DNA of 64,000 nt, from contig OZ246408.1 in the NCBI GenBank assembly GCA_965231015.1, forward strand, positions 481,237 through 545,236, written 5' to 3'. The stretch's first letter is position 1. Every line of letters begins with the position of its first letter. Shown in pieces: positions 43,755 through 56,840 of this stretch. The notes below the pieces were generated by a model. It did not search any database. It was not told the origin of the DNA and was given only the letters and a program-made list of their open reading frames with translations. The translations under genes were made by a program, and so were the position numbers. Origin of the DNA: an uncultured Gammaproteobacteria bacterium. Lineage in GTDB: Bacteria; Patescibacteriota; Patescibacteriia; UBA9934; CAZDDW01.

Positions 43755-44058
43755 GGCGTATAACGGCCGGCGGCTATGCGACGTGGTCCGGAGACGAGCT
43801 TGCTCGTCGACGGGCCATGTCCGCATAGCTGACTGTTGTGCGATGTCGCGTAGCGACGAGCGCAACAAAAGGCGTAGCCGCCGGCCGTTGTGGCGAAGGA
43901 GCGAAGCGATTTCGCCACAACGTTTGCGTGTATCTGATGTTTTGCGGAGCAAAATATGGGAGATCGAAGTGCAACGAGTGAACCGCATATGCTGTGTTAG
44001 GCGAGCCGAACGGAGTGATAGCGAAGTGAGAGTGCAACGTGCCTTTAGCGTATTTTTG
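43755..44058. repeat. GC-rich hairpin-rich repeat element R1 (core module A + module C)
   Basis: A ~170-bp core is nearly identical to R2 and R3: a 14-bp perfect inverted repeat ACGGCCGGCGGCTA...TAGCCGCCGGCCGT encloses ~90 nt, followed by the hairpin GTTGTGGCGAA..TTCGCCACAAC. Arg-rich ORFs inside it are artefacts of GC-richness. Confidence 0.8.
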
Positions 44059-45221: not shown

Positions 45222-45345
45222 CAATTTCGCCACAACGTTCCTGCGTATGCGATGTTTGCTAGTGGTATAATTGCACGAAGTGCTTACCACTGGCAAATAT
45301 GGGTGCAGTGAGGAGGAGGTACAACGACGAACGGAACCGCATATT
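45222..45345. repeat. partial repeat R2' (module B: hairpin CCAGTGGTATAATTGCACGAAGTGCTTACCACTGG)
   Basis: It is near-identical to the right half of R3. Confidence 0.7.
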
Positions 45346-45350
45346 CTTTG

Positions 45351-45899
45351 TTATATGATGTTTTTGTGTGACACGTCATTAAGATAAAACAATATTGCAA
45401 TCAATGATATACCGTCTGATATTTCCTTGTTTTCAATCAGTTCTTTGACTTTAGCAATAGAGAGCCAATGGATTTCATTGACTTCATCTGTATCAAAATC
45501 TATTTGTTTAGAACTATCAGCTTCACCAATAACTACATGTGTCGTTTGGTTTGACATTCCGTTTGAAGGATTGAAAGAATAATGGAGTTTTAATGCCTTC
45601 GTTCTAAACCCAGTTTCTTCTAGCACTTCGCGTTCAGCGGCTTTCAAAATATCCTCGCTTTTATCGATTCCACCGGCGGGTAATTCCCACTGAATCTGTT
45701 GGGTTGTATAGCGAAGTGCTTTTATGAAGCAAATGTCTTTTTTATCGTTGGTCAACAAAACGACTACAGAATCGTTTGGATAGTCTAAAAAATGGTATTT
45801 TTCAATAATTTTACCAGAAGGCATTAAAACCCTGTCTGTATAGAGGTTGATCCATTGGCTCTCGTAGATTGTTTTTCGCTCTAGTCTTTCAGGTAACAT
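45351..45899 (-). CDS. NUDIX hydrolase
   Basis: It carries the Nudix box GGIDKSEDILKAAEREVLEETGF. Confidence 0.85.
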   Translation of the reverse strand: MLPERLERKTIYESQWINLYTDRVLMPSGKIIEKYHFLDYPNDSVVVLLTNDKKDICFIKALRYTTQQIQWELPAGGIDKSEDILKAAEREVLEETGFRTKALKLHYSFNPSNGMSNQTTHVVIGEADSSKQIDFDTDEVNEIHWLSIAKVKELIENKEISDGISLIAILFYLNDVSHKNII

Positions 45900-45943
45900 A
45901 TCTTGATTGTATTAGTGTCACACAAAAATTTCACACAACGGCC

Positions 45944-46240
45944 GGCGGCTATGCGACGTGGTCCGGAGACGAGCTTACTCGTCGACGGGCCATGTCCGCA
46001 TAGCTGACTGTTGTGCGATGTCGCGTAGCGACGAGCGCAACAAAAGGCGTAGCCGCCGGCCGTTGTGGCGAAGGAGCGAAGCGATTTCGCCACAACGTTC
46101 GCGTATATCTGATGTTTTGCGGAGCGTAGCGGAGCAAAATATGGGAGAGCGACGGCAGGAGCGAACCAGATATACGCTGTTGTGCGAGGGTGAGCGACGA
46201 TAGGAGCGAAAGTGCAACGACCCCGAAGCGTATTTTTCAA
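45944..46240. repeat. GC-rich repeat element R2 (core module A + modules C and D)
   Basis: See R1. The core 45944..46115 is nearly identical. Confidence 0.8.
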
Positions 46241-46359: not shown

Positions 46360-47840
46360 CTAAAAAAATCCTCTCATTTTCTCAATAGACTGTTTTAGCT
46401 GTTTTATATCGGGTTTTCCATTATCTTTTTGATGATGAATTTGATTTCTCAAAAATGTATGAATAGTTACTTCATTTTGATTTCCTTTCCATGGAGAATC
46501 TTTTGTTTCTTGTTTTTCACTTTGAAAATAATCTATATCAAATTTTTTGATTGCTTTAGTAATGGTTTCCTTTGTTCCGTCTTTTTTTTCTATTTCTTCT
46601 TGTCCATGTTTAAATATTAATTCTTCGTATAATTCGTTGTGATATTCTTCAGTTGCTAACCCAAAAGCAATAAAATTTACTTCGTTAGCTGAAACATATG
46701 GTAAAACTCTTTTTTCTAATTCTAAAATTTTTACTTCTTCATTTTCTTTCTCTAAGCAATGAATTTGAATTTTGCTATTGTCATTATTTAATGTTTGTTT
46801 AACAAAAAGTGGAGAGTGAGTAGAAAATAGAAATTGATTTTTTTCAGAAATTGAAACTATGTGGTTAATAAAATTATTTTGTAAATCTGGGTGCAAATGT
46901 AGTTCTGGCTCATCAATTAAAATCAAAATGTTTTCTTTTGAAATTTCTGCCATTGTTTCTAAAAATAATAAGGAAACAACCATTTCAACACCTGATCCAA
47001 GTTGAGATATCGGCAAATCTAAACTTTCTAATTTTTGAGAAAGAAAAGCACTATCAAAAGGTGCGTTACAATCAATTAGTGAAAGATCTGCTTTCGGTAA
47101 GCCGACTTTTTCAAGTTTTTCGTTTAATGTCTGAAATGTTTTTTGTTGTGATTTTTCGTCAATTTTTTCTAAAACGCTTGTTTCAAAATTATTTTTTTGA
47201 GTTGTAAATTTTTCTCCGTCAAAATCTTCCTTTGTTTCATTTTTTTTATTTCTTTATTAAATCTCCAATTAAAATCTTCAAAAACTGACGAAATGGAAGA
47301 ATTAAACCCTCTCTGTAATTGTTTTTCTCTGTTTTTTGGAAAATAAAAACTTTTTGGCAACCCTTCTGATTCCAAAGGAAAAGATAACTGTCTTTCATCA
47401 AATTTAAATTTTGTTCCTGTCCCTCTTGTTATCTCCCAGCCATTTTCATTATCTTTTTCTCTGTTTGGTAAAACATAATGAGACACAACAACAATATCTG
47501 AAAATGCTTTTTTAGGAGTTGCCCTATCTCTCTTTTTTATTTCCAAGCAAACTTTACTGCATTCAACATCTTGTTTAGTATAGCCGTCAGGTAAAAAGAT
47601 TTTAAAGTTTTCATTAAATTCTAAAATAATCTTTATTTCAACATCTTCGCCTTTATAAAAATCTGTATGTTTTATTCTTCCTGATAAAAAATAAGGAGAA
47701 AGACAAAAATTTATTGCTTCCAAAATAGAGGTTTTACTTGTTCCATTTTCACCAACAAGCAAAGAAAGATTTTTTAGTTCAAAATCTTTTAATTCTTTTA
47801 TGCCTCTAAAATTTTGGATTGTGATTGTCTTTATCTTCAT
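46360..47840 (-). pseudogene. AAA_21/ABC-like ATPase (OLD/RecF-type) disrupted by frameshift(s): N-part 47169..47840, C-part 46360..47016
   Basis: The N-terminal part has Walker A (LLVGENGTSKTSILEAINF). The C-terminal part has the signature and Walker B (SQLGSGVEMV...LILIDEPELHLHP...STHSPLF). The roughly 150-nt gap between them contains T8 homopolymers. Confidence 0.55.
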
Positions 47841-48970: not shown

Positions 48971-49806
48971 TTATTTGCTCTTAGTTATCTGTTTAAATAT
49001 TTCACTTCCTAATACTTGAAGAGAGGTTTTTGAAATCTCAATCATAATGTTAAACATCTCTTTTGCATCCCATTTTTCTCCATTGCCTTGTGTATATATT
49101 GAAGTTGCCTGAAGCATAATTGTTTTATCTTTGTGTTTAACAAATTTATTTTTACACAGATTAGTATTAATTGGCATTCCATAATTTGCAGAGGTCAGCC
49201 TATCTAACCTATTTAACATTCCTGAATTGTATTCAAGTGTCACAACCCTTCCATCAGGTCTTTTAATTGAAATAGTTTCTGTTAAAAAATTTGACCCCTC
49301 CAAAAATAAGATATATGGAAAATGGGATTCATATAGCATAAAGTTGGCAATTTCTGATATGTTTTTATGTGATCTTTCTATCGCGTTACCGGCAGCCATC
49401 AAGTCTTGATTGTTGTTTATACCAACTTGATTTCCTTTCAGTATATTTTCAATGTCTTTCCCTTGATGTTTAGCCTCCGTTACAAGTAATACTCTCCAAT
49501 TATCGCTATCGTCTTTTACTTCTATTATTCCGCCATCAGGTTTAATGCTTGAATTTGATACAAAAATAGTTTGTCCTAACTCTGGATCAATTTTCTTTAA
49601 TGCTTCGTTTATTTCTTCCTTTTTTATGCTTGTTCTATATCTAAAAGATAATTGAGGAAATTCTTTTTCAAGTTGTTCAATTACAAGATGTGAAATTTTA
49701 CCAACACTTATATCATGCGATTTTGCGTTTTCTCCAAATATACCAACTACTCCGTGAGATTTTTATGCTGATTTGTTAATCTTTTAGATTGATTCTTTTT
49801 AGCCAT
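48971..49806 (-). pseudogene. EcoRI-family type II restriction endonuclease, N-terminal frameshift in T5/A5 run at 49760..49764
   Basis: The region downstream of the frameshift matches R.EcoRI closely: GVVGIFGENAKSHD, PQLSFRYRTSIKKEEINEALKKIDPELGQTIFVSNSSIKPDGGIIEVKDDSDNWRVLLVTEAKHQGKDI and QDLMAAGNAIERSHKNISEIANFML. The N-terminus MAKKNQSKRLTNQHKN is in the -1 frame; one extra A restores the full ORF. Confidence 0.8.
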
Positions 49807-50156: not shown

Positions 50157-50936
50157 TCAGTCCATCTTTTTCATTGGTTTATTGGGATCAACATTATCAT
50201 AATAAAAGTCAAAACCCAGCTCATCAAAAATATTCTCAAATTCTGTAAATACTTGTTCCACCACTTTCTGAAGTTTGGCAAAATTTTGGTACTCACCATT
50301 AATAATGATTTGGAGTAAGTCGTCAAAATGCTCAGGCTTCTTTTTGAATTTCTTTGCTTCTTCTATGAATTTTGCAAATGTTGTATAAGGCTTCTGATTT
50401 AGAAAAGTTAATGTTATTAACATGTAATTGCACATGTCAAATACCAAAAGGGAAATGCCAAGTTTGTTTTTTTTCGTGATAGCATTTAGAACTTTAGCAG
50501 TTGATTCTTGTAGGTCTCCGAAGTGATGAATGATCTGCTTGTGACACTTTTCTTTAAGGTTCTTAACTTTGTAATTGTTGAGACGATCTATAAAAGGTTT
50601 ATTGATGAGTGGAAGTAATTTATCAGAACCGGAAAGAAACCAATCAGGCGTGGGCTCTTTCACTGTTTTTATGTATGAGTCTTTAGTCATCCAAACCAGT
50701 TCAACCAGAAGACCATCACGGATTTTGCCCATGCCCGCCCAGGTTTTACCTCTTGGCATTTCCCGAACAAATGCAATTAACTCTAAATCAGAATAGCCAA
50801 AATCTTCGTTTCTAGCAAAAGAAGCCTGAGCCGCTAATGCAATAAGATTTTTGCCAAACTTCTTTTTGATAAGTGGAACAAGTTCTTTAACTACTTGCTC
50901 TCTTTCTTTATGAGAATATTTTTGTAGACCACGCAT
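50157..50936 (-). CDS. nucleotidyltransferase of the ANT(4')/KNTase/Lnu superfamily (NTase domain + KNTase_C-like helical domain)
   Basis: The sequence KEREQVVKELVPLIKKKFGKNLIALAAQASFARNEDFGYSDLELIAFV matches the pol-beta-type NTase motif ([GA]S...SD[LI]E[LM]). The protein is 259 aa. Confidence 0.6.
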   Translation of the reverse strand: MRGLQKYSHKEREQVVKELVPLIKKKFGKNLIALAAQASFARNEDFGYSDLELIAFVREMPRGKTWAGMGKIRDGLLVELVWMTKDSYIKTVKEPTPDWFLSGSDKLLPLINKPFIDRLNNYKVKNLKEKCHKQIIHHFGDLQESTAKVLNAITKKNKLGISLLVFDMCNYMLITLTFLNQKPYTTFAKFIEEAKKFKKKPEHFDDLLQIIINGEYQNFAKLQKVVEQVFTEFENIFDELGFDFYYDNVDPNKPMKKMD

Positions 50937-51014: not shown

Positions 51015-51300
51015 TCGTATAACGGCCGGCGGCTATGCGACGTGGTCCGGAGACGAGCTTACTCGTCGACGGGCCATGTCCGCATAGCTGACTGTTGTGC
51101 GATGTCGCGTAGCGACGAGCGCAACAAAAGGCGTAGCCGCCGGCCGTTGTGGCGAAGGAGCGAAGCGATTTCGCCACAACGTACCTGCGTATGCGATGTT
51201 TGCCAGTGGTATAATTGCACGAAGTGCTTACCACTGGCAAATATGGGTGGAGGCTTGCGGAGGTACGGAGCAAGCCGTAACCGCATACGCAGTGTTAGCT
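51015..51300. repeat. GC-rich repeat element R3 (core module A + module B)
   Basis: See R1. The core 51020..51185 is nearly identical. Confidence 0.8.
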
Positions 51301-51364
51301 GATGTATTCCTTTTCTTTTCGACGATAGTCGTTTGTTTTAAAAATTTTCAAATTTCTTTTTCCG

Positions 51365-51473
51365 TTTTGGGTGGTGGGCAGAGGGGAATTAAAGGGGTGA
51401 ATGCCCGCCACCCAAAACACCTATTTCTGTTTGAGGGAGGGGCAAGAGGGGAACAAAAGGGGTGAATTGCCCC
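51365..51473 (-). terminator. two tandem GC-rich hairpins directly after the Ppl-like gene stop, loops sharing GAGGGGAAYWAAAGGGGTGAAT
   Basis: Hairpin 1 is TTTTGGGTGGTGGGC..GCCCGCCACCCAAAA. Hairpin 2 is GGGGCAA..TTGCCCC. Both are flanked by A/T runs. Confidence 0.5.
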
Positions 51474-51486
51474 GACCGAAAACATG

Positions 51487-54339
51487 TTATTTGTTTAACA
51501 AATATTTCCTTTCTCGCTGTCTAAAGGCTTCCTCTCCACCTTCAAGAATATCTCTTATATTTTTGTTTATTTCTGGATTTTCAATACTGCCTGATAAATA
51601 GCCTAATTCTTGATCTAGCCTTGCTACGATTATTTGTTCGGCATCCGCATTAACTACTAGATTAGCGTTGTGGGTCGACATTATGATTTGTCTTGATTGT
51701 TTGGCCTTCCGGATGAGTGGGACAAGTTCATTCATTATGAAATTGTTATCAAGGTTGTCTTCAGGTTGATCTATAATGAAAACTTGTTTTGCCGTTGCAG
51801 TAGCTAAATAGACTTTTAGTAAAAGGGTTCCTCTTTGTCCGATAGATAAAATTTCAGTTGCCTTTCCATTTAACTTTGCAATTGCTTTTACTCCCAAGAA
51901 GTCAGCCCATTCAGTGAAAATGTAATATGTGATTCCGCTGATTCCATCACGACTAAAACATTTTTGTTCGCCTAGGTCAGTTTTTTGTATCCATACTGAT
52001 AGATTCTCAAAGGTTATTTCTCGGGGCGTTCCGTCTTCATTTGTGCCAGCTATCATTTTTTTCAGATCAGTTTCATTTGCTACTTTCCGGTTATCCAGAA
52101 AATCATCCAATACACGCTTAGCAAACTTTTTGAAATTAAATTCAATTTTTCCCTCAACTTCAATGCCATTGATAATTTTTTCGAATAGTTCCTTCTCTTC
52201 GGCTGTTGAATCATCGCGTGAATTTTGAAAATCTTTAAATGCTTGTGTGATGGCATTTCGTAGGGCAAGTAATGAATTACTGATTTGTTCCAAGATTTTT
52301 CTTTTCTCCTCATGCAAGTCCACCAATTGTGTTATTGACCGATTGTAATTCTCAAGATCTTTTCCAATGTTGCTTATTTGGCGTTGTAAATTTTCACTGG
52401 CCTGTAATAAGGTATTAACATCTTCCTTAATACCCTGTTCAATAAGTTTCTTTTTTAGAGCAATGATTTCTTCTCTCAATTTAGTCATATCTGCCTCAAT
52501 TTTTGTCTGTAATTCGCTAAGTACTTTTGTCTGTTTGCTGATATTTAGACCCTCAATCTCTTCGTTGTCGGGGTAGTGGTTTTTTAGAATAATGTTGAAG
52601 TTGGCTATTTCTTGTGTGATTGGCAATTCACGAAGGCCTAGCAGTAGTGTGTTTGCTTTTTCTTTCAACTCTTTAAGCTTAAGTCCTTTTTCAGTTTTTT
52701 TATTTATTTCATCAAGTGTCTCCTTTGTTTCTTTTGATGAGAGTCTTTTTTGTTGGTCTGTAAGTTTTGCTAAATAGCTTGCTATCCATTTTTCCAAGTC
52801 TTCGCCCTCGGTATATCCAAGCTCTTTATACCGTTCAATAATGTCTCGGGTACGTTGCTGGGTATTATCAATATCACCAAGTACATCTCGTGCTTTTGAA
52901 GTTAAAACTTCTTGGCCTATTTCGTTAACGTCAATGCCAATCAAATCGCAAACAGTTCGTGTTAGTTCAAAATCATTTGTTGCAATACCGCTTAGCCTTT
53001 CTTGTCCTAGGTACAAAAATGGTAATTCAAGATTTGTTTTATCCGAAAGTTCCTTCTCAAATTCAGACATATCACCATCTTTATCTATCAATGAAGTTTT
53101 GAATGTATAAGAAGGACGTGGCTCTGTTCTTGCTTCATTATCTCTATAATATTCAATAATCTTTTTCTTATTGTTTTGATCTAATTTTAAATGTTCCTCA
53201 TTAAGAAAAGCGAAAGTATCAAGCAGAGCACTTTTTCCACTTCCTCTACCGCCAATTAATGCTATAAGCTCTCTATTTAATAGTATTTCTAAGTCAGGCA
53301 AAACAAAATTTTTACTTCCAGTTAGTTTTATTGAATCAAAATATATTTTCTTTTTTTCTTCGTATGGGTTCTGTTCTTGAATTTTTACTCTTTCCGAAGG
53401 TTCAAATAGTAATTGTTTCAGCCCGTCAAATGTTGGGTTGGATTTAATCCATGTATATCTTTTATTGTCTGGTTCAAATAACTTTTCGTAGGTGTGGGAA
53501 TCTGACCCCCAAATGCATGGTTTAAGGCTTTTAAATTCATTAATGTATTCTTGGGGATTCTCATGCTTTCTTCCAAGACCCCAATTTATCGTAGCTTGAT
53601 TTGAACTGATAAGTACATCAGATTTTTGAATATAAATTTTTCTTACATTATGATCTTGTCCATCCCAAGAAATTTTACTTAAATCTTCATCAGAAGGTAC
53701 ACACATCATATACATGCCTGCAAATTTCGATTTCTTATTAGTTAGTATTTCTGCTATCTGAGTGTGATTTACTACCGCACACTTCATGCCGACAAATAAG
53801 TCAGTATCTGAGTTAAACTCTGCGTGCTCTTTCTTTAGACTTTGACCCAACGTTTCAAGGTTGGGAATTTTTAATTTCCATTTTTCATCAGTGCCTTGAG
53901 GATTTCCTTCATAAATAAAATCTAATTCGTGGAGGAAATTTTCTTCAATATCTGTAATTAAAACTTCATCTGAAAAAATCACATGAAAATTTACTCGGTT
54001 ACCATCTACTAACGTATCAAGGCGAAATTCTACATTTGGGAACAGTTTTATTTTTTTAATTTGCTTAATTTCTTTATCCGTAAATAGTTCAGCAAGCTTG
54101 GTGTCATTATTCAGGTACTCCTGCTTTATCTTCTTATATCCTTCAATGCAGAAGTAATCAGTAATTCCTATAACCGCTATCTGCTTTTCAATGGCAGCTT
54201 TAAAAAGCTTTTTAACATATTCATCGAAGTCATCGCCAAAGCCATTACTTAAATGCGAAAAGGGAGTATGAACCTGTAAATCCCATTTTCTCCAAATCGA
54301 CCCCCTTTGAAACTGATTGTATTTAACTTCGTCAGACAT
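51487..54339 (-). CDS. PHP-domain phosphoesterase fused to SMC/ABC-type ATPase with coiled-coil (Ppl-like single-gene defence candidate)
   Basis: The N-terminal PHP motifs are WDLQVHTPFSH, NVEFRL, NFHVIF and GSDSH. Walker A is LIGGRGSGKSALLDTF, followed by a long coiled-coil middle. The C-terminus has Walker B/D-loop FIIDQPEDNLD and H-loop MSTHN. Confidence 0.7.
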   Translation of the reverse strand: MSDEVKYNQFQRGSIWRKWDLQVHTPFSHLSNGFGDDFDEYVKKLFKAAIEKQIAVIGITDYFCIEGYKKIKQEYLNNDTKLAELFTDKEIKQIKKIKLFPNVEFRLDTLVDGNRVNFHVIFSDEVLITDIEENFLHELDFIYEGNPQGTDEKWKLKIPNLETLGQSLKKEHAEFNSDTDLFVGMKCAVVNHTQIAEILTNKKSKFAGMYMMCVPSDEDLSKISWDGQDHNVRKIYIQKSDVLISSNQATINWGLGRKHENPQEYINEFKSLKPCIWGSDSHTYEKLFEPDNKRYTWIKSNPTFDGLKQLLFEPSERVKIQEQNPYEEKKKIYFDSIKLTGSKNFVLPDLEILLNRELIALIGGRGSGKSALLDTFAFLNEEHLKLDQNNKKKIIEYYRDNEARTEPRPSYTFKTSLIDKDGDMSEFEKELSDKTNLELPFLYLGQERLSGIATNDFELTRTVCDLIGIDVNEIGQEVLTSKARDVLGDIDNTQQRTRDIIERYKELGYTEGEDLEKWIASYLAKLTDQQKRLSSKETKETLDEINKKTEKGLKLKELKEKANTLLLGLRELPITQEIANFNIILKNHYPDNEEIEGLNISKQTKVLSELQTKIEADMTKLREEIIALKKKLIEQGIKEDVNTLLQASENLQRQISNIGKDLENYNRSITQLVDLHEEKRKILEQISNSLLALRNAITQAFKDFQNSRDDSTAEEKELFEKIINGIEVEGKIEFNFKKFAKRVLDDFLDNRKVANETDLKKMIAGTNEDGTPREITFENLSVWIQKTDLGEQKCFSRDGISGITYYIFTEWADFLGVKAIAKLNGKATEILSIGQRGTLLLKVYLATATAKQVFIIDQPEDNLDNNFIMNELVPLIRKAKQSRQIIMSTHNANLVVNADAEQIIVARLDQELGYLSGSIENPEINKNIRDILEGGEEAFRQRERKYLLNK

Positions 54340-54342
54340 AAA

Positions 54343-55419
54343 CTATTTGATAAATCGTATTTGCAGGTTGAGTTTGATAAACATTTCGCCGTTTTCTTCG
54401 TAAACTGTGCCGTATCCGTGGCGTGTTGCACTTGGTGATTCCATGCGAGTGTTATTAAACAAGTAATTTCGAAACGCTTCCGCATTATAAAGATGATAAC
54501 AAACGATTTCGCCGTCTTCACGAACCACAATCACTCCACCGTGGGCACGCAAGGTACCGTCCCATGCACTGGCGGGAACCATTCCGAGAGCTGCATTATT
54601 GAGTAATGCTTTGATTTTGTAGGCGTAGTCTTCGGTGGAAAGTTTGAAATTCAAAATTTGCATTTTTTCATCTTGCAAGTGTTGCAATAATTCCGGGAAA
54701 GTTGCGCCTTTGTCAGAGAAATAAGCCAAAAGAACTTCCGCCATTATTTCTGGCATGATCGTGTCGATTTTTCGTAAGTTTCGCTCGAAAACTTCGGAAT
54801 CAATGCCGTGAAACGCAAACGCTCCGCCCGCTTCACGAATTGCGAAAAGGCGATCACGAATTTTTGCCTTTGTATCAATTGTATTTATTTCTTCAATTTT
54901 TCGTTCATCAAGTCCTGTGATTTTGTATGTAAAGTTAGTTGCTCCCGAAGCGTTGAGAAGTGTTGCGGGTGAACCGAGTTTTGATTTGATACTGAATCCT
55001 ATTTCGTGATCTCGTCCGATCGTGTGATCATGGACTTTCAAAATCAAATCTTCTTTCCGTGCATTTCCGGCATTGAGGGTTTTTATTCCAAAGCGTTCAA
55101 AAAGTTCGTCCGCAAGTGGGACGGAAAAGGTTTGTGATTTTTCTTTAATCTCCGCAAATACTTCAACGACTTTCGATTTCAAATCGGAGGTGTCTACGAT
55201 TGTGGTTTCGCCGTCAATGTGCAAGATTTTCACTTTTTCTCCTTCTTGCAATTCGTATTCCGATTTCCCCTCGGTCTCCTCACGGATTATTTTCAAAATT
55301 GGAAAAAAGACCGCTTCGATTTTTTCGAGTTCTTCATCAGCTCCGATGATTTTTTTATCGACGAGAAGTTTTATAAAAGCATAAAACTCGCTCCATTCGC
55401 CTTTATTTCCTGTGATCAT
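54343..55419 (-). CDS. type II restriction endonuclease candidate (HpaII-like family by N-terminal GNKGEWSE.Y...KLL pattern; assignment tentative)
   Basis: It lies immediately downstream of, and 3'-overlapping, a C5-MTase in a C-M-R arrangement. Motifs GNKGEWSEFYAFIKLL and SIKSKLGSPATLLNASGATNFTYKI are present. Confidence 0.5.
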   Translation of the reverse strand: MITGNKGEWSEFYAFIKLLVDKKIIGADEELEKIEAVFFPILKIIREETEGKSEYELQEGEKVKILHIDGETTIVDTSDLKSKVVEVFAEIKEKSQTFSVPLADELFERFGIKTLNAGNARKEDLILKVHDHTIGRDHEIGFSIKSKLGSPATLLNASGATNFTYKITGLDERKIEEINTIDTKAKIRDRLFAIREAGGAFAFHGIDSEVFERNLRKIDTIMPEIMAEVLLAYFSDKGATFPELLQHLQDEKMQILNFKLSTEDYAYKIKALLNNAALGMVPASAWDGTLRAHGGVIVVREDGEIVCYHLYNAEAFRNYLFNNTRMESPSATRHGYGTVYEENGEMFIKLNLQIRFIK

Positions 55420-56320
55420 AAGTATTGAGTGATTGGATAATTTGTTGAGCGACCGCTTGAATGGCAGTAACCGCAACCGCATTTCCCAGTTGCTTCATTG
55501 CTTTCATGTCTGAAACTGGAAATTCAAAATCATCGGGGAAGCCCATCATTTTTTTACCTTCAACCGGTGAAAGTCGTTTTACTTTTCCTTTTACCATGTA
55601 TGAATCCCAGTTATGGCGATCATCAATTTTTGATCCTCGTCCACCAACACGAAGTGTATATCCGATTTTCTTTTCGCAAGGTGCGCCCCAAATGTCGGAC
55701 ATGGTTTTTTCGAGTTTGATTGGTTCCGGAAATTCAAATTTTATATTTGGATCTTTGAATCCGACCATAAATAGACGGGGTCGGTGTTGCGGAAGCCCAA
55801 AATCGGACGCTTTAACTATTTTGTAATGGAATGAATAGCCAAGATCATCGGTTATTGTTTTTTTAATAACTTCAAAAGTTTTTCCGTCGTCGTGATTCAA
55901 CAAGTGTCGAACATTTTCCAAAAAGAAAGCCGTCGGTTGTTTTTCTTTGATGATTCTTACTATGTCATGAAAAAGTGTTCCGCGAGTATCTGAAAAACCT
56001 TTTCTAAAGCCGGCTTGTGAGAATGGCTGACAAGGAAAACCACCCGTCAAAATATCAAAGTCGGGGATTTCTTTTTCATCTACCTTGGTAATGTCGCCTG
56101 CAAATAATTCTTTTCCTTCCGCAAAAAGGCCTTTTTTGAAAAGCTCAGGTTGGATTTTTTTGAAATTATGCTCGTATGTTTGGCGTGCGTGTTCGTCCCA
56201 TTCACTTACAAAAACGCATTTTGCACCCGCATTGTGAAAAGCCAAATGAAAACCACCTATTCCAGCGAACAGGTCAATGAAAGTGATTTCCCGTTTTTTC
56301 TTTTGAGTTTTCGCTTTCAT
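55403..56320 (-). CDS. DNA (cytosine-5)-methyltransferase (Dcm/HhaI-type, short TRD)
   Basis: Motif I is DLFAGIGGFHLAF, motif IV is GGFPCQPFSQAG, motif VI is FFLENV and motif X is QLGNAVAV. Confidence 0.9.
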   Translation of the reverse strand: MKAKTQKKKREITFIDLFAGIGGFHLAFHNAGAKCVFVSEWDEHARQTYEHNFKKIQPELFKKGLFAEGKELFAGDITKVDEKEIPDFDILTGGFPCQPFSQAGFRKGFSDTRGTLFHDIVRIIKEKQPTAFFLENVRHLLNHDDGKTFEVIKKTITDDLGYSFHYKIVKASDFGLPQHRPRLFMVGFKDPNIKFEFPEPIKLEKTMSDIWGAPCEKKIGYTLRVGGRGSKIDDRHNWDSYMVKGKVKRLSPVEGKKMMGFPDDFEFPVSDMKAMKQLGNAVAVTAIQAVAQQIIQSLNTYDHRK

Positions 56321-56322
56321 AG

Positions 56323-56532
56323 TTATTTTATTAAGTCGTTAATGTCCACTTCAAGTGCTTGCGCAATTTTTGTCATTGTTTCGATTGTTGGGTTTCCGTT
56401 GTTTCCTGATTCTAAAGTAACAATTGTATTGAGTGCGACATCAGCAAGTTTTGATAGTCGGTCTTGCGATATCCCTTTTTCGGTACGGATCTTTTTTAAG
56501 TTCTTACCTATGTTTGCAATGTTTGGTTTCAT
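56323..56532 (-). CDS. XRE-family HTH protein, R-M controller (C) protein candidate
   Basis: The sequence is MKPNIANIGKNLKKIRTEKGISQDRLSKLADVALNTIVTLESGNNGNPTIETMTKIAQALEVDINDLIK. It lies directly upstream of the MTase. The start was set at an internal ATG. Confidence 0.7.
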   Translation of the reverse strand: MKPNIANIGKNLKKIRTEKGISQDRLSKLADVALNTIVTLESGNNGNPTIETMTKIAQALEVDINDLIK

Positions 56533-56609
56533 ATACCAGTAGAATGTAATAGTTACACTGGTTGTATTGTATCGTGTCTGAAATGCTTGGTCAATTCTTA
56601 TAAATAAAT

Positions 56610-56705
56610 GTTCCGCCGACAGGCGGAACTCCATATATTCCCCTCATCAAAAAAGCGTTTCCGTAGCTTTGCGGAGGAAACACCATATTTCCCCTTATAA
56701 AAAAG
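56610..56705. promoter_or_regulatory. two tandem units of [GC hairpin + CCATATWTCCCCT motif] upstream of the C gene
   Basis: Unit 1 is GTTCCGCC gaca GGCGGAAC + tccatatattcccctcat. Unit 2 is GTTTCCG tagctttg CGGAGGAAAC + accatatttcccctta. Confidence 0.45.
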
Positions 56706-56840
56706 AAAAAGAAATTTGAAAATTTTTTAAAACAATTGGGCGATAGCCCAGAAAAGAAAAGGAATATTTCAGCTAACTCGTTTATATGTGAAGTAAAGTT
56801 CGGATAAAGTATGGATTTAAGATAATATCCGATCCTAATC

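What the first reader, a model, noticed from the sequence alone, without database searches (positions are those of the whole stretch)
51487..54339. PHP-phosphoesterase + SMC-like ATPase single polypeptide (Ppl-like), co-oriented 4 nt downstream of a restriction endonuclease gene
The 950-aa protein has an N-terminal PHP domain (H-x-H...E...H...GSDSH), then Walker A, a ~350-aa coiled-coil insert, and Walker B/D-loop/H-loop. It resembles an SbcC-like ATPase with a PHP nuclease in cis. This matches the domain logic of the 'ppl' single-gene anti-phage system reported in large-scale defence-island screens, as I recall the name. Here it appears to be the fourth cistron of the C-M-R operon. The terminator-like hairpins begin only after its stop.
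Basis: partly seen in the sequence, partly recalled or inferred. Interest (0 to 1): 0.7.

Follow-up and report, generated by a model that had tools for sequence, protein, structure and literature searches.

The report
Ppl-like TrlF nuclease-ATPase in restriction cassette
The 950-residue gene is real and encodes a nuclease-plus-ATPase protein of the already catalogued TrlF family, a distant relative of the anti-phage protein Ppl, and it travels with a restriction-modification system inside a small mobile gene cassette.

Summary
The ORF at 51487-54339 is real (950 aa) and lies on the minus strand. It is the last gene of a tightly packed operon: HTH controller, C5 methyltransferase, HpaII-type endonuclease, then this gene.

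Structure prediction and fold searches confirm an N-terminal PHP phosphoesterase fold. They also confirm an SMC/Rad50-like ABC ATPase head split by a roughly 250-residue coiled coil.

The protein is a full-length member of NCBIfam "TrlF family AAA-like ATPase" (543 bits, cutoff 350). It fails the Ppl model (121 bits, cutoff 1000). It is nevertheless homologous to E. coli Ppl over its whole length (24% identity; hhalign probability 99.9%). The first PHP histidine is a glutamine (Q-x-H).

TrlF has no conserved partner gene, but it recurs inside restriction-modification operons of several types.

The four genes here form a 5.5-kb cassette bounded by 80-nt inverted repeats. Sister cassettes occur at different sites in other CPR genomes. 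They also carry a vsr gene and a different TrlF N-domain.

The same cassette ends occur in at least 120 metagenome contigs with varied, mostly defence, cargo. An IntI-like recombinase often lies next to them.

Best reading: a Ppl-like defence nuclease. Any functional coupling to restriction is an inference.

The parts
56699..56777 (.). Upstream cassette boundary: the 'AA-type' arm of the ~80-nt inverted repeat. The outer end GTTAGCTGAAATATTCC... is at 56777. The arm lies directly after the stop codon of the PBP2 gene.
   Evidence: The repeat finder reported inverted pairs I3/I7/I8, and the sequence is shown. The terminus occurs exactly twice in the window. Homology to the sister cassettes L002-L006 begins here.
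56323..56634 (-). Controller (C) protein gene with an HTH_3/HTH_19 domain. Homologues are annotated as 69 or 102 aa.
   Evidence: Pfam HTH_19 45.7 bits and HTH_3 44.9 bits; PADLOC Control_protein models also match. The same gene sits first in the sister cassettes.
55403..56320 (-). C5 cytosine DNA methyltransferase, 305 aa.
   Evidence: Pfam DNA_methylase 287.9 bits; TIGR00675 dcm 297.5 bits.
54343..55482 (-). HpaII-type (CCGG) restriction endonuclease. The ORF is 379 aa. The annotated start in an identical contig corresponds to 55419 (358 aa).
   Evidence: Pfam RE_HpaII 377.2 bits, covering profile positions 1-359 of 359. Gene calls in L001 give the shorter start.
51487..54339 (-). TrlF-family protein, 950 aa: a PHP phosphoesterase domain fused to an SMC/Rad50-like ABC ATPase.
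   Evidence: NCBIfam NF045780 543 bits (cutoff 350), residues 12-946 aligned to profile 1-943 of 944. The AF2 model has pLDDT 89.6 and pTM 0.75.
53380..54306 (-). PHP-fold domain, residues 12-320. Putative metal ligands are D20, Q22, H24, D61, E104, H119, D280 and H282.
53458..54265 (-). Recombinant segment, about residues 26-294. This PHP core has no DNA homology to the sister HpaII-Vsr-TrlF cassettes, although the sequence on both sides does.
   Evidence: blastn breakpoints. Identity by segment: the PHP core is unrelated to P0002 (E 0.19), while the ATPase lobes are 96-99% and the coiled coil 84% identical to it. The same core is 59-69% identical to P0004, P0005, P0009 and P0105.
52930..53349 (-). 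ATPase head, N-terminal lobe (residues 331-470), containing Walker A GGRGSGKS (363-370) and the Q-loop Q446.
   Evidence: Pfam SMC_N matches residues 335-408. K369 and Q446 are invariant.
52165..52929 (-). Antiparallel helical coiled-coil arm, about residues 471-725. No Cys hook at the apex.
   Evidence: AF2 helices 476-505, 515-532, 539-570, 573-588, 601-634, 640-705 and 713-723. The top Foldseek hits are SMC heads with a coiled coil (5xei, E 2e-13).
51490..52164 (-). ATPase head, C-terminal lobe (residues 726-950). It contains the signature LSIGQRG, Walker B/D-loop IIDQPEDNLD, H890 and the conserved C-terminal motif LEGGxxAFxxRxxKY.
   Evidence: Pfam AAA_21 matches residues 832-895. The motif residues are invariant columns. 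A profile search of the PDB gives Rad50 heads as the best hits (E 8e-9).
51356..51484 (-). Two tandem 64-nt hairpin units immediately after the TrlF stop codon; probably the terminator module of the cassette.
   Evidence: Direct repeat D3. The RNA fold shows two long hairpins, z = -3.5.
51294..51368 (.). Downstream cassette boundary: the 'TG-type' arm of the inverted repeat. The outer end GTTAGCTGATGTATTCC... is at 51294.
   Evidence: Homology to the sister cassettes ends here or just beyond.
51015..51293 (+). GC-rich, highly structured element abutting the cassette. Its last ~110 nt (51182-51293) match the 107-113-nt junction found between adjacent cassettes in metagenome contigs.
   Evidence: Three copies in the window. 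Fold energy -164 kcal/mol, z = -13.1. Junctions in L126 and L127. No Rfam match.

Best explanation
The gene encodes a TrlF-family protein, a sister family of the anti-phage protein Ppl. A PHP-fold metal-dependent phosphoesterase (nuclease-type) domain is fused to an SMC/Rad50-like ABC ATPase head that carries a short coiled-coil arm.

It is transcribed as the last gene of an operon under a C-protein regulator, after a C5 methyltransferase and an HpaII-type (CCGG) endonuclease. The four genes form a 5.5-kb cassette bounded by ~80-nt inverted repeats. That cassette has moved between genomes of CPR bacteria (Candidate Phyla Radiation).

Most likely function (inferred): a second-layer defence nuclease against phages and other invading DNA that works like Ppl. 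Nucleotide binding by the ATPase head and the PHP site would keep it off. Free DNA 3'-OH ends would let the PHP domain degrade DNA as an exonuclease.

In this operon the ends could come from HpaII cleavage of unmethylated incoming DNA. TrlF would then turn restriction cuts into irreversible degradation. This coupling is the least certain step.

Shown here: family membership, both folds, homology to Ppl, operon structure, cassette mobility and recurrent linkage to R-M genes.

Inferred: defence role (about 0.65), end-directed exonuclease activity (about 0.5) and functional coupling to restriction (about 0.3).
For: Family and fold:
- NF045780 TrlF scores 543 bits against a cutoff of 350 and aligns end to end.
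- The ATPase resembles SMC, Rad50, RecF and JetC heads with a coiled coil.

Homology to a characterised defence protein:
- Against E. coli Ppl (WP_015059139.1), BLASTP gives 24% identity over 745 aa (E 1e-24) plus an N-terminal match.
- hhalign gives probability 99.9% and E 1e-34 over residues 6-939 against 2-888.
- Ppl is described as an NTP-inhibited ssDNA 3'-5' exonuclease that senses 3'-OH ends (review PMC12904381; primary reference Xu et al., Mol Cell 2026, cited in PMC13434339).

Operon: spacers of 2-3 nt or overlaps between genes, and hairpins only after the last gene.

Accessory, mobile character:
- The island has 28-39% GC against about 44% for the rest of the window.
- The neighbours of 80 GTDB homologues are not conserved.
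- 1174 plasmid records carry a match, 845 of them on plasmids predicted to be conjugative.
- The family has 1550 cluster representatives at E<=1e-30.

Linkage to R-M genes:
- Sister cassettes read C-M-R(HpaII)-Vsr-TrlF.
- Type I operons read hsdS-TrlF-hsdR or hsdM..hsdS-TrlF..hsdR in L090, L020, L021, L048 and L069.
- MmeI-like, type ISP and solitary methyltransferase neighbours also occur.
- L154 reads MTase-S-TrlF inside a cassette that starts at the same repeat terminus (AA end only; the contig ends before a second arm).
- IncC plasmids read hsdR-TrlF-TrlG-hsdS-AAA-hsdM.
- In total at least 16 of 80 GTDB loci show same-strand R-M linkage. Eight of 19 tightly coupled upstream genes are R-M subunits.
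Against: - No experiment links any TrlF-family protein to phage defence in the literature I could search. The only functional study, on the Photorhabdus TRL locus, ties the locus to temperature-dependent growth arrest and found no role for trlF itself.
- The protein fails the Ppl equivalog model, and PADLOC has no TrlF model.
- The first PHP metal-ligand histidine is Gln here, and the residue after D61 is Tyr (ITDY) where Ppl has His (ISDH). Catalysis could be altered.
- The canonical Walker B glutamate position is Gln (DQPED). This is shared with Ppl, so the ATPase may bind rather than rapidly hydrolyse nucleotide.
- HpaII leaves 5' overhangs, whereas Ppl is reported to sense 3'-OH overhangs.
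- Most TrlF genes (about 80% of sampled loci, and the three enterobacterial and Burkholderia plasmid copies inspected) are not next to R-M genes. Coupling is therefore not obligatory.
- R-M genes are common in defence islands in any case, and I ran no matched control.
Confidence: 0.6

Rival explanations
1. TrlF is an independent single-gene defence protein that merely shares a cassette and a promoter with the HpaII system. The linkage reflects co-mobilisation of defence genes, not a shared mechanism.
For: - About 80% of the sampled TrlF loci have no adjacent R-M gene. The three plasmid copies inspected in detail stand alone next to toxin-antitoxin genes, colicin genes or integrases.
- Close homologues occur with only an HTH gene (P0005) or alone (P0009).
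- Ppl itself is a single-gene system.
Against: TrlF is repeatedly found between subunits of one R-M system, with overlapping or 3-20-nt junctions, in distant phyla and with four R-M types. Simple co-location in an island does not explain this easily.
Confidence: 0.3
2. TrlF is a DNA-end processing or repair factor, acting like SbcCD or Mre11-Rad50. It would limit the cost of carrying a restriction system, for example by processing self-inflicted breaks, rather than attacking phage DNA.
For: - Its best solved relatives are Rad50, SMC and RecF heads.
- The PHP fold is shared with proofreading and repair nucleases: the PHP domains of DnaE and PolC, and EndoQ.
- Sister cassettes also carry the repair nuclease Vsr.
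Against: - No NCBIfam SbcC, RecN or Rad50 model matched this protein.
- There is no zinc hook and no SbcD/Mre11 partner.
- The distribution is patchy and linked to mobile elements.
- The N-domain is hypervariable and swapped between lineages, which suggests conflict-driven evolution rather than housekeeping.
Confidence: 0.07
3. It is part of a TRL-type growth-arrest module, as in Photorhabdus trlR-trlF-trlG. The HTH regulator would control a toxic effector that halts replication under stress.
For: The family is named after that locus. There an HTH gene, trlF and trlG form an operon that arrests growth at 36-37 C. An HTH gene heads the operon here too.
Against: - There is no TrlG homologue in the window. 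TrlG is essentially absent from the 80 GTDB loci, with one distant hit.
- All suppressor mutations in Photorhabdus mapped to trlG, none to trlF.
- HTH genes accompany TrlF in only 5 of the 80 GTDB loci.
Confidence: 0.05
4. The PHP domain is catalytically degenerate (Q22 in place of His; Y62, where Ppl's ISDH motif has His). The protein would then act only as an ATP-dependent DNA-binding sensor or scaffold.
For: - The motif is Q-x-H here and in 15 of 87 class-1 homologues.
- A second N-domain class (29 of 118) has Q-x-Q and SD-x-R, losing three canonical histidines.
Against: D20, E104 and D280 are invariant, and H24 and H282 are conserved in class 1. The domain model is very confident. The ORF is intact, and its ATPase part is 84-99% identical to sister copies while the N-domain was actively exchanged, which argues that the domain is under selection.
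Confidence: 0.1

Closest known systems
Ppl (single-gene anti-phage system of E. coli; NCBIfam NF042955; Millman et al. 2022 from my own knowledge; mechanism in Xu et al., Mol Cell 2026 as cited in PMC13434339 and summarised in PMC12904381)
   Same: - Same overall architecture and homologous from end to end: an N-terminal PHP domain, an ABC/SMC-type NTPase head with a helical insert, and the C-terminal motif LEGGxxAFxxR.
- Shared GSDxH and DQPED-x-LD motifs.
- hhalign probability 99.9%.
   Different: - Only 24% identity.
- It scores 121 bits against the Ppl model's cutoff of 1000.
- Ppl has H-x-H and ISDH where this protein has Q-x-H and ITDY.
- In the one Ppl plasmid locus inspected (pGUE-NDM) the gene stands alone, whereas this gene is the fourth cistron of an R-M operon.
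TrlF of the Photorhabdus laumondii Temperature Restricting Locus (trlR-trlF-trlG; PMC7554251)
   Same: Same curated family (NF045780), and an HTH gene is present in the operon.
   Different: - There is no TrlG (AlbA_2/HATPase_c_4 'RecG-like') partner here.
- The partners here are a methyltransferase and an HpaII endonuclease.
- No function was assigned to TrlF in that study.
Rad50-Mre11 / SbcC-SbcD and SMC-type defence complexes (Wadjet JetC, Lamassu LmuB)
   Same: An ABC ATPase head interrupted by an antiparallel coiled coil; these are the best structural matches. The logic of pairing a nuclease with an ATPase is also shared.
   Different: - The nuclease has a PHP fold and is fused in cis, rather than being an Mre11/SbcD phosphodiesterase or Toprim protein acting in trans.
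- The arm is short (about 110 residues per strand) and has no zinc hook or hinge.
- No kleisin or other partner genes are present.
PrrC/EcoprrI and other defence genes embedded in type I R-M operons
   Same: A nuclease-type defence gene is inserted between or after R-M subunit genes and co-transcribed with them, as TrlF is in L090, L020, L021, L048, L069, L095 and L154.
   Different: PrrC is an anticodon nuclease unrelated in sequence. No evidence here shows that the R-M proteins hold TrlF latent.
OLD/Gabija GajA and PARIS AriA (ABC ATPases of the AAA_21/AAA_15 type in defence)
   Same: The C-terminal ATPase lobe hits AAA_21 and PADLOC AriA, GajA, HEC-01A and mad3 models. AriA is among the PDB hits.
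   Different: Those proteins pair the ATPase with Toprim nucleases and lack both the PHP domain and the long helical insert.

Membership tests
TrlF family AAA-like ATPase (NCBIfam NF045780) | Whole-protein score at or above the curated cutoff (350 bits), with an end-to-end alignment to the 944-position model | tested here: met
   543 bits, E 2e-162, residues 12-946 aligned to profile 1-943 of 944. A close homologue (P0002; 91% over 69% of the query) is named 'TrlF family AAA-like ATPase' by NCBI.
TrlF family AAA-like ATPase (NCBIfam NF045780) | N-terminal PHP-type (histidinol-phosphatase-like) domain | tested here: met
TrlF family AAA-like ATPase (NCBIfam NF045780) | Operon partners of the founding locus (TrlG AlbA_2/HATPase_c_4 protein and TrlR) | tested here: not met
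   No TrlG-like sequence in the window, and only 1 distant hit in the 80 GTDB loci. An HTH gene is present but is the C protein of the R-M system. Because most family members lack TrlG, this is not a family-defining feature in practice.
Ppl anti-phage protein (NCBIfam NF042955 / PADLOC Ppl) | Score at or above the curated equivalog cutoff (1000 bits) | tested here: not met
   121.2 bits, two stretches, the best covering residues 832-942. PADLOC Ppl gives 102.8 bits, two stretches, the best covering 830-944.
Ppl anti-phage protein (NCBIfam NF042955 / PADLOC Ppl) | Full-length homology and the same domain order as E. coli Ppl | tested here: met
   hhalign probability 99.9%, E 1e-34, residues 6-939 against 2-888. 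BLASTP gives 24% identity over 745 aa, E 1e-24.
Ppl anti-phage protein (NCBIfam NF042955 / PADLOC Ppl) | Canonical PHP H-x-H motif | tested here: not met
   WDLQVHT here against FDFHNHT in Ppl. Q-x-H occurs in 15 of 87 class-1 homologues.
Ppl anti-phage protein (NCBIfam NF042955 / PADLOC Ppl) | NTP-inhibited 3'-5' exonuclease activity and protection against phage | not testable with these tools
   This needs biochemistry and phage assays. The Ppl primary paper was not available.
Housekeeping SbcC / Rad50 / RecN | A match to the curated SbcC, Rad50 or RecN models; a zinc hook; an adjacent SbcD/Mre11 gene; a conserved chromosomal context | tested here: not met
   - None of these models is among the listed NCBIfam hits for this protein.
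- There is no CxxC at the coiled-coil apex.
- The neighbours are R-M genes.
- The context is not conserved across 80 genomes.
Type II R-M system with C protein (HpaII-like) | A cognate methyltransferase, an endonuclease and an HTH controller in one operon | tested here: met
   RE_HpaII 377 bits, DNA_methylase 288 bits, HTH_3 45 bits, with contiguous genes. Enzyme activity and CCGG specificity were not tested.
Integron-type gene cassette (side question) | Cassettes in head-to-tail arrays separated by palindromic recombination sites, next to a divergent IntI-type tyrosine recombinase | tested here: inconclusive
   - All 15 complete cassettes pair one AA-type end with one TG-type end.
- Junctions are 107-113 nt and bounded by AGCTAAC...GTTAGCT.
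- A ~270-aa recombinase lies 57-560 nt outside the AA end and divergent from the cargo in 6 loci.
- Its best PDB relative is IntI4, E 4e-45.
- No recombinase was found in the window, the recombinase is shorter than IntI, and recombination itself is untested.

The most novel reading that the evidence does not exclude
There are two linked readings.

(1) TrlF-family proteins are modular effectors of restriction-modification systems. They are recruited again and again as the terminal or embedded gene of type I, II, IIL/IIG and ISP operons. In MTase-S-TrlF or MTase-TrlF arrangements where no R gene was seen nearby (L154, L007, L008), they may even serve as the nuclease-ATPase arm. In the usual case they would extend restriction cuts into full degradation.

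(2) The C-M-R-TrlF unit is one cassette of a previously undescribed integron-like system in CPR bacteria. That system has 80-nt inverted cassette arms, a ~110-nt GC-rich attC-like junction and a short IntI-like recombinase, and it shuffles mainly defence genes.
Probability: 0.3. Interest if true: 0.75.

Novelty: new member of a known kind. Interest (0 to 1): 0.45.

Why it matters
The protein itself is an ordinary member of a large family that is already annotated. About 1,550 clusters at 50% identity match at E<=1e-30. Relatives occur on more than a thousand plasmid records, most of them from Enterobacteriaceae, and its relative Ppl has a published mechanism.

The context matters more, for three reasons.

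- TrlF recurs inside restriction-modification operons of several unrelated types. That suggests a testable division of labour between sequence-specific cutting and end-directed degradation. It also gives the untested TrlF family a concrete functional hypothesis.
- The nuclease domain is exchanged between lineages while the ATPase stays nearly identical, a pattern typical of an arms race.
- The cassette ends found here define a widespread family of mobile cassettes in CPR metagenomes that carry mostly defence genes and sit next to an integron-integrase-like recombinase. If this is a true site-specific cassette system, it would extend integron-type gene capture to a major, poorly studied bacterial radiation.

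Tried and rejected
- A sequence search of the PDB with the protein and with a family profile found only Rad50 and ABC heads and no Ppl structure. Foldseek against the PDB with the full model likewise returned only SMC/Rad50-type heads.
- The Ppl primary paper is not in the library. A follow-up literature search failed on term syntax. Searches for TrlF and TRL found only the Photorhabdus paper.
- I looked for a conserved partner gene. BLAST clustering of neighbours in 86 loci found none. HTH genes lie near TrlF in only 5 of the 80 GTDB loci, and TrlG in about 1. TrlF is therefore not an obligate multi-gene system.
- TrlF-like genes are rare in the phage collection, with 7 weak hits.
- Rfam gave nothing for the GC-rich repeat or the cassette arms, at the gathering threshold or at E<=1.
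- tblastn for an integrase or Vsr in the window found nothing.
- CCGG is not depleted in the window (O/E 1.16), so there is no sign of long-term HpaII pressure.
- I considered and rejected a housekeeping SbcC/RecN paralogue (see the membership test).
- I considered target-site duplications at the cassette ends and saw none.
- A literature search for integrons in CPR returned nothing relevant.


Full report
**1. The observation**

The window has an ATG-initiated ORF at 51487..54339 that encodes 950 residues. It lies on the minus strand.

Upstream on the same strand are three genes:
- an HTH_3/HTH_19 controller gene at 56323-56634;
- a C5 DNA methyltransferase at 55403-56320 (Pfam 288 bits, TIGR00675 298 bits);
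- an HpaII-type endonuclease at 54343-55482 (RE_HpaII 377 bits over the whole profile).

The genes are packed tightly. C and M are 2 nt apart. M and R overlap. The R stop codon TAG is followed by TTT and then the ATG of the 950-aa gene.

Two tandem 64-nt hairpin units at 51356-51484 follow the last stop codon. The description "fourth cistron of a C-M-R operon" therefore holds.

Walker A (GGRGSGKS, 363-370), Q446, the signature LSIGQRG (831-837), Walker B/D-loop IIDQPEDNLD, H890, GSDSH (278-282), E104 and H119 can all be read in the sequence. Most are invariant or nearly invariant in alignments of 20 and 79 homologues.

The N-terminal motif is Q22-V-H24, not H-x-H. The helical insert is about 250 residues rather than 350.

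**2. What the protein is**

Pfam gives only marginal hits: SMC_N 42 bits, AAA_21 42 bits, and PHP 17 bits, which is below threshold.

NCBIfam is decisive. NF045780 "TrlF family AAA-like ATPase" scores 543 bits against a cutoff of 350 and aligns residues 12-946 to profile positions 1-943 of 944. The Ppl model NF042955 reaches only 121 bits against a cutoff of 1000, and its best stretch covers only the C-terminal lobe. PADLOC's Ppl model behaves the same way, and PADLOC has no TrlF model.

An AlphaFold2 model built on 79 homologues is confident (pLDDT 89.6, pTM 0.75). Its best PDB matches are SMC, cohesin, condensin, Rad50, RecF and JetC heads with a coiled coil. A family profile finds Rad50 heads by sequence (E 8e-9).

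The N-terminal 330 residues, modelled alone, give pLDDT 94.2 and pTM 0.91. They match only PHP-fold proteins at significant levels:
- Foldseek: BAD_1165, the DnaE PHP domain and RNase AM;

**3. Relation to Ppl**

I retrieved an annotated E. coli Ppl (WP_015059139.1, plasmid pGUE-NDM).

BLASTP gives 24% identity over 745 residues (E 1e-24) plus a separate N-terminal match. Comparing the TrlF family profile with the Ppl sequence aligns residues 6-939 with 2-888 at probability 99.9%.

TrlF and Ppl are thus homologous families with the same domain order and shared motifs: GSDxH, DQPED-x-LD and the C-terminal LEGGxxAFxxR. They are not orthologues.

Ppl is summarised in a 2026 review as an ssDNA 3'-5' exonuclease. 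NTPs bound to both its PHP and NTPase domains inhibit it. Nucleotide depletion together with 3'-OH ends made by phage homing endonucleases activates it. The primary reference is cited, and I could not read it.

For the TrlF family itself I found only the Photorhabdus "Temperature Restricting Locus" study. There trlR-trlF-trlG arrests growth at 36-37 C, all suppressor mutations map to trlG, and no role was assigned to trlF.

**4. Features that temper the analogy**

- In this protein the first PHP histidine is glutamine. The residue after D61 is tyrosine where Ppl has histidine.
- Among 118 close homologues, 87 share this type of N-domain (68 with H-x-H, 15 with Q-x-H). Another 29 have a second type with Q-x-Q and SD-x-R.
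- In both TrlF and Ppl the Walker B aspartate is followed by glutamine rather than the usual catalytic glutamate (DQPED). This may mean slow hydrolysis.
- These are observations only. Their catalytic consequences are unknown.

**5. Genomic context of the family**

The family is large and mobile:
- 1,550 representatives of 50%-identity clusters match at E<=1e-30.
- 1,174 plasmid records carry a match, mostly from Enterobacteriaceae. Of these, 845 are on plasmids predicted to be conjugative, and the listed matches are mostly annotated "TrlF family AAA-like ATPase".
- Only seven weak matches occur in phage records.

In 80 GTDB genomes from many phyla no neighbouring gene is conserved. HTH genes are near TrlF in only 5 of these loci, and TrlG is essentially absent. 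TrlF is therefore basically a stand-alone gene in variable, island-like or plasmid contexts.

One class of neighbour does stand out: restriction-modification genes on the same strand, often translationally coupled.

- *Type I.* hsdM..hsdS-TrlF..hsdR in L020, L021, L048 and L069; hsdM-TrlF in L075; an hsdS fragment, TrlF and hsdR in L076; TrlF-hsdS in L029; hsdS-TrlF-hsdR in L090.
- *MmeI-like type IIL.* L018, L033 and L052.
- *Type ISP.* L014, L065 and L070.
- *Solitary methyltransferases.* L007, L008 and L015.
- *IncC plasmid.* HTH-hsdR-TrlF-TrlG-hsdS-AAA-hsdM.

That is at least 16 of 80 independent loci. Eight of 19 tightly coupled upstream genes that I tested are R-M subunits. I did not run a matched control against other defence genes, so the enrichment is suggestive rather than proven.

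**6. The cassette**

The island from about 44 to 57 kb has 28-39% GC, against about 44% for the rest of the window.

The four-gene unit is bracketed by an ~80-nt imperfect inverted repeat, with arms at 51294-51368 and 56699-56777. Its 26-nt terminus, GTTAGCTGANNTATTCCTTTTCTTTT, occurs exactly twice in the window.

The closest TrlF homologues are 69-91% identical. They lie in other CPR genomes in cassettes reading HTH-M-R(HpaII)-Vsr-TrlF, bounded by the same repeat but inserted at different chromosomal sites.

DNA homology to those cassettes starts exactly at 56777 and ends at 51236-51285. It is interrupted at 54265-53458. There the window copy lacks vsr and carries a different PHP core. That core is unrelated to its sisters' (E 0.19) but 59-69% identical to other lineages. 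The ATPase lobes stay 96-99% and the coiled coil 84% identical to the sister copy.

The nuclease module has therefore been exchanged by recombination between conserved flanks.

**7. Where the cassette ends lead**

The findings:

- The ends come in two types. The "AA" type sits at the 5' side of the cargo and is followed by a conserved leader. The "TG" type sits at the 3' side and is preceded by hairpins.
- All 15 complete cassettes, from 0.97 to 9.2 kb, pair one end of each type. In the 12 metagenome cassettes whose cargo was examined, 22 of 23 cargo ORFs run from the AA end to the TG end.
- The cargo is mostly defence genes:
  - a type I R-M system with an AAA_15 ATPase and DUF2130;
  - helicase-MTES_1575 nucleases of 1,600-1,700 aa;
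  - type IIG enzymes and methyltransferases;
  - a T5orf172 protein.
- Some cargo is not defence-related: NUDIX, SDR plus radical SAM, and an MFS transporter.
- Another locus with an AA-type end (L154; the contig ends before a second arm) reads MTase-S-TrlF.
- Adjacent cassettes are separated by a 107-113-nt GC-rich palindromic junction bounded by AGCTAAC...GTTAGCT. The same sequence abuts the TG end in the window (51182-51293).
- The most recurrent protein in these contigs is a ~270-aa tyrosine recombinase. In six contigs it lies 57-560 nt outside an AA end and is divergent from the cargo.
- The recombinase's best solved relative is the Vibrio integron integrase IntI4 (E 4e-45), ahead of XerC, XerA and XerD.

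This geometry resembles an integron platform. However, no recombinase is present in the window. The recombinase is shorter than IntI. The conserved 80-nt arms have no counterpart in classical integrons. I found no literature on such elements in CPR. I report it as a partly followed lead.

**8. Mechanism**

*Shown:* family membership, both folds, homology to Ppl, operon structure, cassette mobility, domain exchange and recurrent R-M linkage.

*Inferred, in decreasing order of confidence:*
- TrlF is a defence effector (about 0.65).
- It acts as an NTP-gated, end-directed exonuclease like Ppl (about 0.5).
- In this operon it acts on the ends produced by R.HpaII, or otherwise cooperates with restriction (about 0.3).

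*Points against:*
- There is no experimental link between TrlF and defence.
- The PHP ligand set is altered.
- HpaII leaves 5' overhangs, whereas Ppl is reported to sense 3'-OH overhangs.
- Most TrlF genes are not next to R-M genes.

The rivals are independent hitch-hiking, a repair or restriction-alleviation role, a TRL-type growth-arrest module, and a degenerate nuclease. Each is listed with its refuting experiment.

**9. Verdict**

The protein is Ppl-like in architecture and ancestry, but it belongs to the separately curated TrlF family. It is therefore a new member of a known kind.

Interest is moderate. It comes from three things: the repeated capture of TrlF by restriction-modification operons, the swapping of its nuclease domain, and the integron-like cassette family that the locus reveals.

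Noticed in passing
window 51294-51368 and 56699-56777; loci L096-L215, L002-L006: The cassette's 26-nt terminus GTTAGCTGANNTATTCCTTTTCTTTT is present in at least 120 metagenome contigs.
- All 15 complete cassettes (0.97-9.2 kb) pair an 'AA' end with a 'TG' end, and the cargo runs from AA to TG.
- The cargo is mostly defence genes.
- Adjacent cassettes are separated by a 107-113-nt GC-rich palindrome bounded by AGCTAAC...GTTAGCT.
- A ~270-aa tyrosine recombinase, closest to the integron integrase IntI4, often sits just outside the AA end and is divergent from the cargo.
- This looks like an integron-like cassette system in CPR bacteria.
   Followed up: partly
window 43762-43950, 45937-46125, 51021-51209 (extended copy 51015-51293); partial copy 45224-45322: A GC-rich repeat is present in three copies, with an identical 52-mer in each.
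- It folds extremely stably: -164 kcal/mol, z = -13.1 on the + strand and z = -8.7 on the - strand.
- It has no Rfam match even at E<=1.
- The copies separate gene blocks of the low-GC island, and each carries several CCGG sites.
   Followed up: partly
window 53458-54265 (TrlF residues ~26-294): The TrlF N-domain is mosaic. The PHP core was exchanged relative to the sister cassettes, while the ATPase lobes are 96-99% and the coiled coil 84% identical. Across the family, many database hits match either residues 9-380 or about 292-950 separately, so the nuclease and ATPase modules recombine.
   Followed up: yes
homologues P0002, P0003, P0006, P0008, P0067 (loci L002-L006): A second N-domain class (29 of 118 homologues) replaces H-x-H with Q-x-Q and SD-x-H with SD-x-R. 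It loses three canonical PHP histidines but keeps D20, E104 and D280. It may be an inactive or chemically different nuclease domain.
   Followed up: partly
window 54340-54342, compared with L002 9612-9989 and L004 9576-9989: The sister cassettes carry a vsr (very-short-patch repair endonuclease) gene between R.HpaII and TrlF. The window copy has only a 3-nt spacer there, and no vsr occurs anywhere in the window.
   Followed up: yes
The listed ORF therefore starts only at 49402. The adjacent EcoRI-type methyltransferase is intact (435 bits). GAATTC is under-represented in the window (O/E 0.57).
   Followed up: partly
window 46360-47016 (-) and 47169-47840 (-): Two adjacent ORFs match the N-terminal and C-terminal parts of one AAA_15/AAA_21 (PtuA, GajA, OLD-like) ATPase. 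Intact relatives in the cassette-bearing contigs (those matched by the repeat terminus) are 401-534 aa, so this is probably a split pseudogene.
   Followed up: partly
window 50157-50936 (-): This gene encodes a KNTase_C / ANT(4')-like nucleotidyltransferase (NCBIfam ANT_4p_I 64 bits, far below its cutoff). It lies between the GC-rich repeat and the EcoRI genes. Its function was not examined.
   Followed up: no
window 45351-45899 (-), with inverted repeat 45350-45374 / 45915-45939: A NUDIX hydrolase gene is bracketed by its own short inverted repeat and by copies of the GC-rich repeat. A NUDIX gene is also the cargo of one metagenome cassette (L145) bounded by the same inverted-repeat ends.
   Followed up: no
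TrlF residues 857-861 (window 51757-51771): The Walker B region reads D-Q-P-E-D. A glutamine occupies the position of the usual catalytic glutamate. The motif is invariant in the family and shared with Ppl (LDQPEDDLD). It may indicate slow hydrolysis or a sensor-type NTPase.
   Followed up: partly
L095 (IncC plasmid pNDM-EcoGN568, NZ_KJ802404.1 133934-144981): On an IncC resistance plasmid, TrlF and a TrlG-like 'RNA-binding domain' protein are embedded in a type I R-M operon: HTH-hsdR-TrlF-TrlG-hsdS-AAA ATPase-hsdM. All genes are co-oriented and overlapping.
   Followed up: partly
L013, L057, L119, L127: A DUF2130 protein recurs immediately downstream of TrlF in two loci. It is also the last gene of two metagenome cassettes with the same repeat ends that carry other defence genes.
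   Followed up: no
whole window: CCGG is not depleted (259 observed, 223 expected; O/E 1.16) despite the resident HpaII-type system. This is consistent with recent acquisition of the cassette.
   Followed up: partly
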